DNA from: Roseibacillus sp.
GTDB lineage: Bacteria > Verrucomicrobiota > Verrucomicrobiia > Verrucomicrobiales > Akkermansiaceae
Assembly: GCA_051251855.1 (NCBI GenBank)
Contig: JBPOGI010000007.1
Location: 160,001 to 224,000 of the forward strand
Direction: 5' to 3'
Length of the DNA stretch: 64,000 bases
Shown here piece by piece: positions 30,001 through 33,000 of the stretch. Within the stretch, counting starts at the first letter, position 1; the number at the start of each line of letters is the position of its first letter. The position numbers are program-made.

Positions 30001-33000
30001 AGGCACCTTGGCCCTAGCTGGAATCTTCTTTGCTTTCCGAGGGGAAGAACTCACCAAAGCTTGGCGCGTTTCAATGAGAATCGCCGTCGCCACCACCGCT
30101 CTCATTGTCGTCGGCTTTCCGGCAGCAGAATTGCTTTTCAAGGTCACCCCTCTCAAGGCCCAGCGCCGCACCTACTGGGGATACCCTGAACTATCGGCGA
30201 AGATTTCCCAACATAACCCCGAAGGCAACCACGCTATTATTTTGAGAGGCCACCGCGATGGCGCCTCCGAATTCGCCTTTAATATGCCAGGCAAACCTGA
30301 AGTTCACGTTTGGAACGAAAAAAACAGAATCGCTCACCAATACGACTTCTGGCCCGGCCCCGATGTCGGCACCCCCACCCTTCTCATCATCGAGAGGCGT
30401 CGAGAATCGAGTAAAGCAACACCGAGCGACCGAATGCGAGAGTCATTCGACGACATCGAGTTTCTTGGCGAGTATGGACTTCACCCCTCGCGAGACTACC
30501 CTCGCTTTAAAGTCTATCGAACTTCGCCCCTTAAGTCCTGGCCTTCGCCGATTGAGAGTTCGCGGCGATAACGACGCTCAGCCCAAGTCAGGCCGACCGT
30601 AAAGCGTATAGCCTGTCGAATCATCGACCTGAACATCGAAAATCTCGCCAGTCATACGCTCCACATCGCCATCAAAGATGACGATTTTATTGTGCACCGT
30701 ACGTCCACTCAGCCTGGCCTTGTTCGTCTTGCTTGGCCCCTCGCAAAGGACCTGCTGACGGGTTCCAATGAGAGCAGCATTCTTAGCCGTGGTGAGTTCA
30801 TTCTGAACACGAAGAAGCTCCTGATTCCGCTCCTCCTTCACCTTCTCAGAGAGCTGCCCCTCCATCTCAGATGCCGGCGTGTCTTTGCGCTTCGAATAGC
30901 GAAAGATGAAACTATTATCGAAGCCAATATGCTTCACACAATCGACCGTCGCTTGGAAGTCTTCTTCTGTTTCGGTCGGGAAGCCCACGATGATGTCGGT
31001 AGTGATCGCCATATCAGGCCGAGCCGCTTGCATTTTTTCACAAATCGCAATGAACTTCTCATTCTTGTAAGGACGACGCATCGCCTTCAAAATCCGGTCA
31101 CTACCACTTTGCATCGGAAAGTGAATGTGCGAACAAAGCTTGGGGAGGTAGGTGAACGCCGCCACCAAATCATCCCGATAACCAATCGGATGTGGACTCG
31201 TAAATCGAATACGCTCGATACCTTCCACCTCATGCACAGCCTCTAACAACTGCACGAATGGTGACTTACCATCGACCTTAGGAAACTCGGTTCGGCCATA
31301 GAGATTTACAATTTGCCCCAGCAAAGTAATTTCCTTCACCCCTTCGTCACGAAGGTGCTTCACCTCATCGACAATCTGGGTGATGGGACGCCCCCGCTCC
31401 TTTCCTCGAGTGTCTGGGACGATGCAAAAACTACAACGCATGTTGCAACCTTGCATGATGCTCACGAAAGAACTCGCCCTCTTCTCAGCAGAAGGGACAT
31501 GGTCACGGATCGTATTCTGGCTTCCGTCTTCCTCTTCAATATCGACCAGCCCCTCAGAAACAGGCTTAGGTTTACCGTTACTGCCCAAAGGACGAATGTG
31601 AACTTCTTCTTCCACTCGCGAGGTCACCATCTCAGCTCCGACCTCATCCATCCGACCCACCAGACGAGTTTTGAGAATCCCATCCACATGGTGAAAAACT
31701 CGGTGATACTTCTGAGTCCCCACCACGACATCGAGATGAGGGATCCTATCAAAAAGCTCCGCTCCTCGGCTCTGAGCCATGCAGCCCATAAATCCGTAGA
31801 CTACATGGGGCCGCTCCTCGCGGTGCTTCCCCATCATCCCCATCTTGCCCAAGGCCTTTTGCTCCGCCTGATCCCGCACCGAGCAGGTGTTTACCAGAAT
31901 GGCATCGGCATCGGTTTCATCCTTCGTCAGAGTGTAGCCTCCGTCCACGAACTCACGAGCAACCTGCTCGGAGTCGCGTTCGTTCATCTGTCATCCGTAG
32001 GTCTTAATAAATACTTTCGGCATAATAGCGGGACGGGAGGCTATAACCCTTCACCGAGAAAACTCAATCGCGAAGGAATAAGAAAACGACGCAAAAAAAG
32101 AGAGCAGAGGATCACTCCCCTGCTCTCAGTTAAATTAAACCAGGCGGTCTACTTTAGAAGTAGAAGCGCATTCCGATCTCGACGTTGGTGAGGCTGTCAC
32201 CAATCTCGTCTGCAACGCCGAAGACGTCAGAAGGAGACCAAGAATAGTTCACGCCAGCATAGACAGCCATGTGTGAACGGATGAAGTACTTAACGCCGAG
32301 CTCTCCAGAGAAAGCGAAGCCGTCGTTGCCCAACACCTCTTCGGTACCGACAAAGCGGTCACCTGAAGCTGCGTATGAAGCACCGAAACCAACGTAAGGA
32401 ACCCACTTGGAGCCGGTTGCGAAGTTGTACTCAGTGAAAAGACCGAAGCGGCTATCGCGAAGGATGTCACCGTCTTCACCTGCCCAGTCGACAGAGAAAC
32501 CGAACTCCCAGTTGTCCTGGATGAACCAACCGTAAGTCATGTTGAGATCCCAAGCGACACCGTCGTTGAGGTCAACGCTTCCGCCGATACCGAGTTCTTG
32601 AGTTCCCGCTGCAAGCATTGGGAGAGAGTTGTCACTGACGTTCATGAAGCCAGAGTTTCCGCCAGCCTGCTGGAGACCGACACCGTCATCAACGACACCA
32701 CCTGCAAAAGCAGTGGTAGCGGTCGCGATTGTTCCTGCGACGAGGAGTGTTGCGTATTTTTTCATTATTGTTTTTGGGATGGGTTAAGCGATTCAATGAT
32801 TTTCAAGGAATCTCAATGACCGCTGCCGAGGAGACAGAGCCACAAACTTCTGTCTTTGGCCACATGAAATTTATTCATATTTACTGAAAAAAAACTTAGT
32901 TTTCCCCGACCTATAAGATACCCTGATTATCAGAAAACCAACCAATTTGCCCCCGCTCATCGACAGTTTCATTATGTATCTCGCTACCGAGAGGGGCCTT

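What a model noticed while it worked through the whole genome (the two positions that open the first line are those of the whole stretch)
30578..32023. MiaB tRNA methylthiotransferase is a selenoprotein: Sec replaces the first Cys ligand of the auxiliary Fe-S cluster
miaB (g03797, called from C11:191987) really starts at C11:192023 (minus strand): twelve further codons lie in frame and include a UGA, giving MPKVFIKTYG-U-QMNERDSE. The UGA stands where MiaB/RimO enzymes have the first of the three conserved cysteines of the N-terminal UPF0004 domain that bind the auxiliary [4Fe-4S] cluster (the role of these Cys is from my own knowledge of the family). So this housekeeping radical-SAM tRNA-modifying enzyme is a selenoprotein here, a family not on the lists of prokaryotic selenoproteins.
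Evidence so far: Upstream frame, start codon and stem-loop 23 nt after the UGA. g03797 is MiaB: 60.9% to MIAB_AKKM8 with the alignment starting at residue 13 of the Akkermansia protein, i.e. the called protein lacks its N-terminus; TIGR00089 429.8 bits. In 61 Akkermansiaceae genomes 58 have the orthologue; 18 of the 58 listed matches (G000 included) carry exactly one TGA, the other 40 none; all TGA forms are in genera that have SelB (g1, g2, g9, g11, g12, g15, g20), no SelB-less genus has one. In six loci read the codon is TGA in G000, G041, G043 and TGC (Cys) in G051, G030, G014 within 83-93% identical N-termini KTYG(U/C)QMN. 'MiaB' and 'methylthio' do not occur in PMC13188914 or PMC9312934; searches MiaB+s [...]
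(Added by a program. Inside this text positions count along the whole contig: contig position 160,001 is position 1 of the stretch shown here. "Call 12" and the like, gene names such as g00115 and contig names such as C1 are that model's own, and its searches are not shown. The text may have been shortened before it was handed on; [...] marks where a part breaks off. The agent that wrote the report below was given it as the finding of a first reader that could run no searches.)

Follow-up and report, generated by a model that had tools for sequence, protein, structure and literature searches.

The report
Selenocysteine-containing MiaB tRNA methylthiotransferase
The tRNA-modifying enzyme MiaB of this marine verrucomicrobial genome almost certainly carries selenocysteine in place of the first cysteine that holds its second iron-sulfur cluster, a form that databases record as a shortened protein.

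Summary
miaB (window 32023..30578, minus strand) starts 12 codons upstream of the called ATG, and codon 11 is TGA inside KTYG-U-QMN. That position aligns with Cys27 of the solved B. uniformis MiaB.

- **Sec machinery:** the genome has tRNA-Sec, SelA, SelB and a TGA-containing SelD.
- **Distribution:** 45 of 117 family orthologues carry TGA at this codon. That is 45 of 59 in SelB-positive genera and 0 of 58 in SelB-negative genera.
- **Upstream frame:** the ten codons before the TGA are conserved as protein, with synonymous change.
- **SECIS:** a hairpin with a GGU apical loop lies 26 nt after the UGA and meets the published bacterial SECIS model. Of 77 conserved degenerate codons, only the two at the loop (GAG, CAG) are invariant in all 45 TGA forms; they vary in Cys forms.
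- **Control:** the paralogue RimO has no in-frame stop in 76 of 76 genomes.
- **Against:** overall hairpin stability does not separate Sec from Cys forms, and there is no protein-level evidence.
- **Novelty:** public databases hold the 461-470 aa truncated forms. MiaB is not named in the main text of two selenoprotein reviews (2022, 2026) or in my searches.

Verdict: a real, apparently unreported selenoprotein family; a new member of a known kind.

The parts
30578..32023 (-). Full miaB coding sequence, 481 codons plus the TGA stop at 30580..30578, with Sec at codon 11
   Evidence: Translation. TIGR01574 448.9 bits, above the 355.3 cut-off. Pfam UPF0004, Radical_SAM and TRAM. 7mjv E 8.4e-91.
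32021..32023 (-). True start codon ATG
   Evidence: ATG (39) or GTG (6) stands at this aligned position in the 45 TGA forms. DNA upstream of it diverges and often holds in-frame stops. It is the only start codon between the upstream in-frame stop and the TGA.
31991..31993 (-). UGA codon 11, read as selenocysteine. It replaces the first Cys ligand of the auxiliary [4Fe-4S] cluster.
   Evidence: It aligns with TGC/TGT in 25 Cys-form orthologues and with Cys27 of B. uniformis MiaB.
31946..31978 (-). SECIS-type hairpin, nt 16-48 after the U of UGA, inside codons 16-26
   Evidence: MFE -19.2 kcal/mol for nt 1-50 and -24.8 for 66 nt.
31954..31972 (-). Conserved upper stem and loop, UCYGAGCA-GGU-UGCUCRGA. 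In G000 the stem is 6 bp, a bulged U, then 3 bp.
   Evidence: 92.7% of cells paired across 43 distinct TGA-form rows, against 22-46% when slid. One pair covaries: CG 16, UA 11, UG 11.
31962..31964 (-). Apical loop GGU, 26 nt after the UGA
   Evidence: Codons 19 and 20 (GAG, CAG) are invariant in 45 of 45 and 77 of 77 TGA forms. They vary in Cys forms.
31985..31987 (-). ATG of Met13, the start used by automatic gene calls
   Evidence: Truncated 461-470 aa products are what public collections hold.
31718..32017 (-). UPF0004 N-terminal domain, residues 3-102, with U11, C47 (31885..31883) and C81 (31783..31781)
31424..31447 (-). Radical-SAM motif C193-x3-C197-x2-C200
30593..30769 (-). TRAM domain, residues 419-477
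32100..32127 (-). Intrinsic terminator of the upstream outer-membrane beta-barrel gene. It bounds the miaB 5' region.

Best explanation
miaB of this genome is a selenoprotein gene. Translation starts at ATG 32023. UGA at codon 11 is decoded as selenocysteine by tRNA-Sec and SelB. SelB is recruited by a SECIS hairpin built from codons 18-24, whose GGU apical loop lies 26 nt after the UGA. Sec11 takes the place of the first of the three N-terminal cysteines that ligate the auxiliary [4Fe-4S] cluster of MiaB, the cluster that carries the methylthio group to C2 of i6A37.

Shown: the frame, the codon, the Sec machinery, the Sec/Cys alternation, and the RNA-level constraint.

Inferred: that Sec is actually inserted, that it binds iron, and why it is kept. 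My guess for the last is a softer, more acidic selenolate ligand that tunes the redox behaviour, repair or oxygen tolerance of a cluster that is disturbed at each turnover.

The likely history is one Cys-to-Sec change in the ancestor of the SelB-bearing marine genera, followed by many reversions to Cys.
For: 1. **Frame.** The ten codons before the TGA are conserved as MP[KRN]V[FY][ILV]KTYG in 45 of 45 TGA forms, with free synonymous variation (codon entropy 0.5-1.96 bits). DNA before the start is unalignable.

2. **Position.** U11 aligns with Cys27 of 7mjv. The N-terminal domain otherwise has only C47 and C81. [quoted passage not shown]

3. **Machinery in G000.**
 - tRNA-Sec
 - SelB 331.1 bits, cut-off 242.25
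 - SelA 455.6 bits
 - SelD 375.9 bits, itself with one in-frame TGA

4. **Distribution.** Of 121 family genomes, 117 have the N-terminus and 45 of those carry one TGA. That is 45 of 59 in the 8 SelB-positive genera and 0 of 58 in the 12 SelB-negative genera. Of the 45 TGA genomes, 43 have SelB over the cut-off, one has SelB split over two contigs, and one has SelA at 493.8 bits but no SelB found.

5. **SECIS.** All four criteria of the published bacterial model (PMC13188914 Fig. 2 legend) are met.

6. **Synonymous constraint.** Of 77 conserved degenerate codons in the first 119, only E19 GAG and Q20 CAG have zero entropy in the 45 TGA forms. V21 (GTT in 41 of 45) and A22 (GCT or GCC only) are the lowest of the four-fold codons. 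In the 25 Cys forms read, these codons have ordinary entropy: 0.65, 0.99, 1.57, 1.44. The pattern repeats in 77 of 77 further TGA loci, 42 of them new.

7. **Same motif in SelD.** The TGA-containing SelD of this genome has a hairpin with the same GCAGGU motif.

8. **Control.** RimO has 0 stops in 76 of 76 genomes. miaB itself ends in TGA, so the genetic code is standard.
Against: - There is no protein, selenium-labelling or RNA evidence. No RNA run holds the locus.
- Hairpin stability against synonymous-codon shuffles does not differ between TGA forms (mean z -1.38, n=45) and Cys forms (mean z -1.51, n=25; Mann-Whitney p=0.48). A stable hairpin here is partly a by-product of the RDSEQVAR codons.
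- Covariation is thin. One of 8 stem pairs shows two-sided changes, and A-C or C-A mismatches occur at pairs 26-36 (10 of 43 rows) and 24-38 (5 of 43 rows).
- The genomes are related, so the counts are not independent. The tree is weakly supported, with 8 of 67 branches starred.
- Only 25 of the 72 Cys forms were read. These were all 14 from SelB-positive genera and 11 hand-picked from the 58 in SelB-negative genera.
- Two TGA-bearing MiaB genes outside the clade (L145, L158) lie in genomes where no SelB was found. TGA can therefore also arise as an error or a pseudogene.
Confidence: 0.88

Rival explanations
1. The TGA is a true stop and MiaB starts at Met13, as annotated. The enzyme would then work with two cysteine ligands, or with another ligand, on its auxiliary cluster.
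For: Gene callers and public collections hold exactly this 469 aa product. The ATG lies 4 nt after the TGA and is present in all forms.
Against: Met13 belongs to the universal QMN motif, so it says nothing about the start. The ten upstream codons evolve as coding sequence in 45 of 45 TGA forms. UPF0004 profile positions 1-10 are matched only with the extension. This reading explains neither the tie to SelB nor the frozen loop codons.
Confidence: 0.04
2. A short leader peptide, MPKVFIKTYG, terminates at UGA and ribosomes re-initiate at the AUG 4 nt downstream. Alternatively, the UGA is read through at low level by an ordinary tRNA. Either would be a regulatory device unrelated to selenium.
For: UGA followed by C, with an AUG 4 nt away, is a geometry that allows re-initiation. 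UGA-C being a weak terminator is recalled, not tested here.
Against: The 'leader' is the same sequence that forms the start of the UPF0004 domain in the Cys forms. TGA forms are confined to Sec-capable genomes: 0 of 58 in SelB-negative genera. The downstream constraint has the shape of a SECIS.
Confidence: 0.04
3. The TGA is a pseudogene lesion or an assembly error in a decaying miaB.
For: TGC to TGA is a single base change. Two isolated cases in other phyla (L145, L158) have neither SelB nor a SECIS-like hairpin.
Against: The same codon is TGA in 45 species of 7 genera, and in 77 of the 80 listed loci of a scan of species-representative genomes. Exactly one stop occurs per gene. The rest of the gene stays open and conserved at 76-94% identity. 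Four DNA runs hold the stretch in full.
Confidence: 0.02

Closest known systems
Cys-form MiaB (solved B. uniformis MiaB, 7mjv/7mjz; Cys forms of Roseibacillus persicicus and R. ishigakijimensis, 481 aa)
   Same: The same three-domain enzyme with UPF0004, radical SAM and TRAM. 7mjv matches at E 8.4e-91. The Roseibacillus isolates' proteins fall in the same 90% identity cluster as the window's product.
   Different: The first N-terminal ligand is Sec (UGA) instead of Cys, and a SECIS is embedded in codons 18-24. There is a roughly 50-residue insert between the N-terminal and radical-SAM domains relative to 7mjv.
Known radical-SAM selenoproteins listed in the 2026 review: TIGR04167 'Radical SAM domain protein' (GxxU) and TrsS (NF045646)
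   Same: Radical-SAM enzymes with an in-frame Sec (PMC13188914, passages).
   Different: They are other families with other Sec positions. P0001 matched neither model among the 24 NCBIfam families at E<=0.001. Those proteins are uncharacterised, whereas MiaB is a well-studied housekeeping enzyme.
Selenoproteins in which Sec is thought to bind a metal or Fe-S centre (NiFeSe hydrogenase FrhA; predicted 2Fe-2S-binding and Fe-S-domain selenoproteins)
   Same: Sec stands at a metal-ligand position. The review says about 20% of families have predicted binding roles, mostly to metals, including Fe-S clusters.
   Different: Here the cluster is a catalytic auxiliary [4Fe-4S] cluster of a methylthiotransferase, with two Cys partners retained.
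Bacterial SECIS consensus model (PMC13188914 Fig. 2A) and the SelD SECIS of the same genome
   Same: - Apical loop of 3 nt starting with GG
- Upper stem of 8 bp
- Spacing of 26 nt
- MFE -19.2 kcal/mol
- GCAGGU motif shared with SelD, whose loop lies 6 nt further from its UGA
   Different: The lower stem differs between genera because the protein sequence differs (REF, RMF or QTF). Likeness to the E. coli fdhF loop is recalled only and was not tested.
RimO, the paralogous methylthiotransferase in the same genome (G000 C6:548246..548605 region)
   Same: The same domain plan, and the same kind of N-terminal Cys triad (SLGCAKN).
   Different: It keeps Cys. No in-frame stop occurs in 76 of 76 family genomes with a match.

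Membership tests
MiaB (tRNA i6A37 C2-methylthiotransferase, TIGR01574) | Equivalog model score above the curated cut-off | tested here: met
   448.9 bits against 355.3. MtaB (316.5 vs 357.05) and RimO (296.3 vs 356.95) fall below their cut-offs.
MiaB (tRNA i6A37 C2-methylthiotransferase, TIGR01574) | N-terminal UPF0004 domain with three conserved Cys ligands of the auxiliary cluster | tested here: met
   The domain matches in full (residues 3-102). The ligand positions are U11, C47 and C81. The first is Sec rather than Cys, aligned to Cys27 of 7mjv. The role of the triad is taken from a passage of PMC5372745.
MiaB (tRNA i6A37 C2-methylthiotransferase, TIGR01574) | Radical-SAM CxxxCxxC motif and a C-terminal TRAM domain | tested here: met
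   C193, C197, C200; PF04055 99.2 bits; PF01938 29.8 bits.
MiaB (tRNA i6A37 C2-methylthiotransferase, TIGR01574) | Forms ms2i6A37 in tRNA | not testable with these tools
   Needs nucleoside analysis of tRNA.
Bacterial selenoprotein gene | In-frame UGA aligned with Cys in homologues, with conserved coding sequence on both sides | tested here: met
   45 TGA forms against 25 TGC/TGT forms at one aligned codon. Upstream codons vary synonymously.
Bacterial selenoprotein gene | bSECIS model: loop 3-9 nt, stem 4-16 bp, G in the first two loop positions, 16-37 nt spacing, MFE <= -7.5 kcal/mol | tested here: met
   GGU loop, 8 bp stem (6 bp, bulge, 3 bp in G000), 26 nt spacing, -19.2 kcal/mol. Criteria are read from PMC13188914 section 5.
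Bacterial selenoprotein gene | SECIS under selection beyond what the protein sequence demands | tested here: inconclusive
   Met by site-wise codon invariance: 2 of 77 codons frozen, in TGA forms only. Not met by overall stability against synonymous shuffles. Covariation is found in only 1 of 8 pairs.
Bacterial selenoprotein gene | selA, selB, selC and selD in the genome | tested here: met
Bacterial selenoprotein gene | Selenium found in the protein | not testable with these tools
   Needs 75Se labelling or mass spectrometry.

The most novel reading that the evidence does not exclude
Sec in MiaB makes the ms2i6A37 level of all UNN-reading tRNAs depend on selenium supply. Decoding fidelity would then become a read-out of selenium status, as it is thought to be of iron status. 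The loop would close on itself: MiaB synthesis needs tRNA-Sec, which reads a UNN codon and here has the A36-A37-A38 anticodon loop expected of an i6A/ms2i6A substrate. E. coli tRNA-Sec carries i6A37 (passage of PMC5699536).
Probability: 0.1. Interest if true: 0.8.

Novelty: new member of a known kind. Interest (0 to 1): 0.6.

Why it matters
- **A new kind of selenoprotein.** It adds a universal, well-studied housekeeping enzyme to the selenoproteome, which is otherwise mostly thiol oxidoreductases.
- **A natural spectroscopic handle.** It is a natural case of a selenolate ligand on the catalytic auxiliary [4Fe-4S] cluster of a methylthiotransferase. The role of that cluster, sacrificial sulfur donor or carrier, is still debated. 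A 77Se ligand would give a probe on exactly that cluster.
- **An annotation error to fix.** Public collections hold these genes as N-terminally truncated products of 461-470 aa. The genome scan listed 77 TGA-form loci.
- **A natural comparison set.** Repeated switching between Sec and Cys inside single genera gives matched Sec and Cys enzymes to compare. At least one cultured TGA-form strain exists (Rubritalea profundi, L121), and there are cultured Cys-form Roseibacillus species.

Tried and rejected
- **Rfam scan** of 31800-32150 at E<=10 gave only six chance-level matches and no SECIS family.
- **RNAalifold** run in a script gave no useful consensus for either group. I used per-sequence folds and a named structure instead.
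- **Hairpin energy against synonymous-codon shuffles** showed no Sec/Cys difference. I rejected it as a discriminator. Cys forms of SelB-negative genera fold a different hairpin (GCGCGAC/GUCGCGC) in which the GGU is paired.
- **Genome-wide scan of G000** for TGA followed by GCAGGT inside long read-through frames gave 66 candidates. Only SelD and MiaB looked like real proteins, judged by eye from the flanking translations; none of the other 64 was run against a protein-family library. The scan is not exhaustive and says nothing about the size of the selenoproteome.
- **N-terminal protein search** listed only full-length Cys forms among its best 120 hits. It was uninformative about TGA forms, so I used exact look-up instead.
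- **Sequencing runs:** no RNA holder listed.
- **Earlier findings of this scan:** nothing to show.
- **TGA-bearing MiaB genes outside the clade.** L145 (title Terriglobus sp. MAG) and L158 (Gammaproteobacteria MAG) have no SelB at E<=1e-40 and no SECIS-like hairpin. They are not accepted as selenoproteins. L151 is a chance match.
- **Alternative genetic code** was rejected. miaB ends in TGA, and the SelA, SelB and RimO frames carry no TGA.
- **Not attempted:** structure prediction and complex prediction. The tools return no coordinates with which to measure ligand geometry.
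Full report
**What is in the sequence**

On the minus strand the window reads ATG (32023..32021), nine sense codons, TGA (31993..31991), then CAG ATG AAC. 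This gives MPKVFIKTYG-U-QMNERDSE. The automatic ORF starts at the ATG of Met13 (31987; 469 aa). An in-frame stop lies ten codons before ATG 32023 with no other start codon between them. The intrinsic terminator of the upstream gene sits at 32127..32100. ATG 32023 is therefore the only start available upstream of the TGA.

With the extension, the protein is a complete MiaB:
- TIGR01574 scores 448.9 bits against a cut-off of 355.3. MtaB and RimO fall below their cut-offs.
- Pfam UPF0004 covers residues 3-102, matching profile positions 1-98 of 98. Radical_SAM and TRAM follow.
- The gene's own terminator codon is also TGA, so the genetic code is standard.

**Where the TGA stands in the protein**

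In the phmmer alignment to the solved Bacteroides uniformis MiaB (7mjv, E 8.4e-91), query residue 11 pairs with Cys27 in KLFIETYGCQMN. Apart from residue 11, the N-terminal domain has only two cysteines, C47 and C81. The radical-SAM triad is C193, C197 and C200. A review passage states that the auxiliary cluster of methylthiotransferases is ligated by three conserved cysteines of the N-terminal domain (PMC5372745, passages read). Residue 11 is thus the first of that triad. This is by alignment and is not shown structurally here.

**Sec machinery**

G000 has all four components:
- tRNA-Sec with anticodon UCA (C1:329166-329259)
- SelB, 331.1 bits against a cut-off of 242.25
- SelA, 455.6 bits
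- SelD, 375.9 bits, itself with one in-frame TGA in the motif SSCAG-U-ASK

**Comparative evidence**

I searched 121 genomes of the family. Of these, 117 have the MiaB N-terminus at E<=1e-30. Forty-five of them carry exactly one TGA and 72 carry none.

| Genus | TGA forms / genomes with the N-terminus |
|---|---|
| g1 | 6 of 9 |
| g2 | 1 of 1 |
| g9 | 2 of 2 |
| g11 | 12 of 12 |
| g12 | 9 of 12 |
| g15 | 8 of 11 |
| g20 | 7 of 11 |
| g17 | 0 of 1 |
| twelve other genera | 0 of 58 |

SelB over its cut-off is found in 56 of 121 genomes, in exactly eight genera: g1, g2, g9, g11, g12, g15, g17 and g20. TGA forms are therefore 45 of 59 in SelB-positive genera and 0 of 58 in SelB-negative genera.

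Per genome, 43 of the 45 TGA genomes have SelB. G114 has SelB in two pieces on two contigs. G104, 93% complete, has no SelB but has SelA at 493.8 bits. Thirteen of the 72 Cys-form genomes also have SelB.

I read the DNA of all 45 TGA forms and of 25 of the 72 Cys forms. The 25 comprised all 14 from SelB-positive genera and 11 hand-picked from the 58 in SelB-negative genera.
- The stop is always at the same codon, KTYG[U/C]QMN.
- The ten upstream codons keep the protein sequence while their third positions vary freely (entropy 0.5-1.96 bits).
- The start is ATG in 39 and GTG in 6.
- The DNA before the start cannot be aligned.

This is the signature of translated sequence upstream of the TGA.

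**Controls**

- The paralogous methylthiotransferase RimO (G000 C6, SLGCAKN) has a match in 76 of 121 genomes and no in-frame stop in any of the 76.
- A scan of 185,579 species-representative genomes, using a degenerate pattern for G-TGA-Q-M-N-x-x-D-[ST]-[DE], found 105 stretches, of which 80 were listed.
- Of the 80, 77 have the verrucomicrobial N-terminus. Their record titles name Roseibacillus, Rubritalea, Oceaniferula, Akkermansiaceae and Verrucomicrobiales.
- One is a chance match (L151).
- Two are MiaB genes of other phyla (L145, L158). In those two genomes no SelB was found and no comparable hairpin follows the TGA. I do not accept them as selenoproteins.
- They show that an isolated TGA at this codon can occur without Sec machinery, but rarely.

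**The SECIS**

In almost all TGA forms the minimum-energy fold presents UCYGAGCA-GGU-UGCUCRGA, counting U of UGA as nt 1: stem at nt 22-29 and 33-40, loop at nt 30-32. In G000 the stem is 6 bp, a bulged U, 3 bp, a bulged U, then 5 bp. The energy is -19.2 kcal/mol for nt 1-50.

The published bacterial model asks for four things (PMC13188914, section 5 read). All four are met:

| Criterion | Required | Found here |
|---|---|---|
| Apical loop | 3-9 nt | 3 nt (GGU) |
| Upper stem | 4-16 bp | 8 bp |
| G in the first two loop positions | yes | GG |
| Spacing from UGA to loop | 16-37 nt | 26 nt |
| MFE | <= -7.5 kcal/mol | -19.2 kcal/mol |

On the alignment of 45 TGA forms (43 distinct rows), 92.7% of stem cells pair, against 22-46% when the 3' side is slid by 1-3 columns. 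One pair, 24-38, covaries: CG 16, UA 11, UG 11, unpaired 5. Three pairs never vary. Pair 26-36 is A-C in 10 rows.

**Is the hairpin more than a by-product of the codons?**

Against synonymous-codon shuffles, both TGA forms (mean z -1.38) and Cys forms (mean z -1.51) are more stable than expected. The two groups do not differ (Mann-Whitney p=0.48). The R-D-S-E-Q-V-A-R codons are self-complementary by nature, and the Cys forms of SelB-negative genera fold a different register in which GGU is paired.

What separates the groups is site-specific:
- Of 77 conserved degenerate codons in the first 119, only two have zero codon entropy in the 45 TGA forms. These are E19 (GAG) and Q20 (CAG), the adjacent codons that make the 5' side of the stem top and the loop.
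- The next two codons, V21 (GTT in 41 of 45) and A22 (GCT or GCC only), have the lowest entropy of all four-fold codons: 0.50 and 0.80, against 0.96-1.96 for the others.
- In the Cys forms the same four codons have ordinary entropy: 0.65, 0.99, 1.57 and 1.44.
- By my reading, 19 of the 25 Cys forms differ at sites that are invariant in TGA forms. That covers all 11 from SelB-negative genera and 8 of 14 from SelB-positive genera, including the three g1 Cys forms.
- The result repeats in the scan's 77 loci, 42 of which are not identical to earlier ones. GAG CAG is present in 77 of 77, GTT in 72, and GCT or GCC in 77. The search pattern fixed only the first two letters of codon 19.
- The SelD gene of the same genome has a hairpin with the same GCAGGU motif, its loop 6 nt further from its UGA.

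**History**

A quick maximum-likelihood tree was built from 333 nt, leaving out the Sec codon and the SECIS core. It needs at least 12 Sec/Cys changes, but only 8 of its 67 inner branches are well supported. One well-supported case is in g20: two Cys forms (L040, L041) nest inside TGA forms (L042, L043) and share their downstream sequence letter for letter.

All basal, SelB-negative genera are Cys, and fresh Cys forms still carry the SECIS while older ones have lost it. The simplest reading is therefore one gain of Sec followed by many reversions. This is inference, because the root is not established.

**Known or new**

Exact look-up of nine Met13-start products, the window's and eight relatives', found all nine in public collections. 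They are 461-470 aa proteins named 'MiaB/RimO family radical SAM methylthiotransferase', 'MiaB' or 'tRNA-2-methylthio-N6-dimethylallyladenosine synthase'. Automatic annotation therefore truncates them. The 481 aa members of the window's cluster, from Roseibacillus persicicus and R. ishigakijimensis, are Cys forms.

The literature checks were as follows:
[quoted passage not shown] Its main text holds none of the strings miab, methylthio, dimethylallyl, isopentenyl, UPF0004 or TIGR01574 anywhere. Its radical-SAM entries are TIGR04167 and TrsS (PMC13188914; passages and section 5 read).
- The 2022 review has no word starting with miab or methylthio (PMC9312934; word-start search only, so these strings inside hyphenated names would be missed).
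- A 2022 preprint on new selenoprotein families has neither string anywhere in its text (10.1101/2022.07.06.499078).
- Full-text searches returned nothing on a Sec-containing MiaB, judged from listings and abstracts only. The term pairs were: MiaB + selenocysteine; methylthiotransferase + selenoprotein; selenoprotein + radical SAM + bacterial + SECIS; dimethylallyladenosine synthase + selenocysteine; selenoproteome + Verrucomicrobia.

Supplementary tables of older surveys were not seen.

**Verdict**

The gene is very probably a genuine selenoprotein gene (confidence 0.88). It is a new family added to a well-known mechanism, not a new mechanism. Two things remain open: direct proof of Sec insertion, and the chemical reason for keeping selenium on this cluster.

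Noticed in passing
G000 C7:93121-94050 (locus L010), outside the window: SelD of this genome is itself a selenoprotein: a TGA in SSCAG-U-ASK, followed by a hairpin ACGCA-GGUCU-UGCGU. The Sec system therefore depends on its own product.
   Followed up: partly
window 31994 (base before the TGA) and the same site in L013-L162: The base just before the UGA is a purine in all TGA forms: GGA or GGG in 45 of 45, and A 48 / G 29 in the 77 scan loci. Cys forms use all four glycine codons. This could be a context effect on Sec insertion or shared ancestry.
   Followed up: partly
window about 31540-31700 (residues about 108-165): A stretch of about 50 residues between the UPF0004 and radical-SAM domains has no counterpart in B. 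uniformis MiaB. The alignment breaks between residues 107 and 166. The stretch differs in length between genera, with proteins of 456-490 aa, and many family matches split there.
   Followed up: no
L145 and L158 (loci): MiaB genes with TGA at the same cysteine codon occur in a MAG titled Terriglobus sp. and one titled Gammaproteobacteria. Neither has a detectable SelB or a SECIS-like hairpin. They may be sequencing errors, pseudogenes or incomplete bins.
   Followed up: partly
L101 (locus): A contig titled Vicinamibacteria carries a verrucomicrobial-type TGA miaB, and its genome has SelB at 313.5 bits. The bin label or the binning looks wrong.
   Followed up: no
G000 C1:329166-329259: tRNA-Sec has the anticodon loop C-U-U-C-A-A-A, that is A36-A37-A38. 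I recall this context as the determinant for isopentenylation of A37, which is the substrate MiaB then methylthiolates.
   Followed up: no
window 32947-33837 (+): A tyrosine recombinase of the XerC/D type (Phage_integrase, 152.4 bits) lies about 900 bases upstream of miaB. An outer-membrane beta-barrel gene lies between them (32154-32765, minus strand).
   Followed up: no
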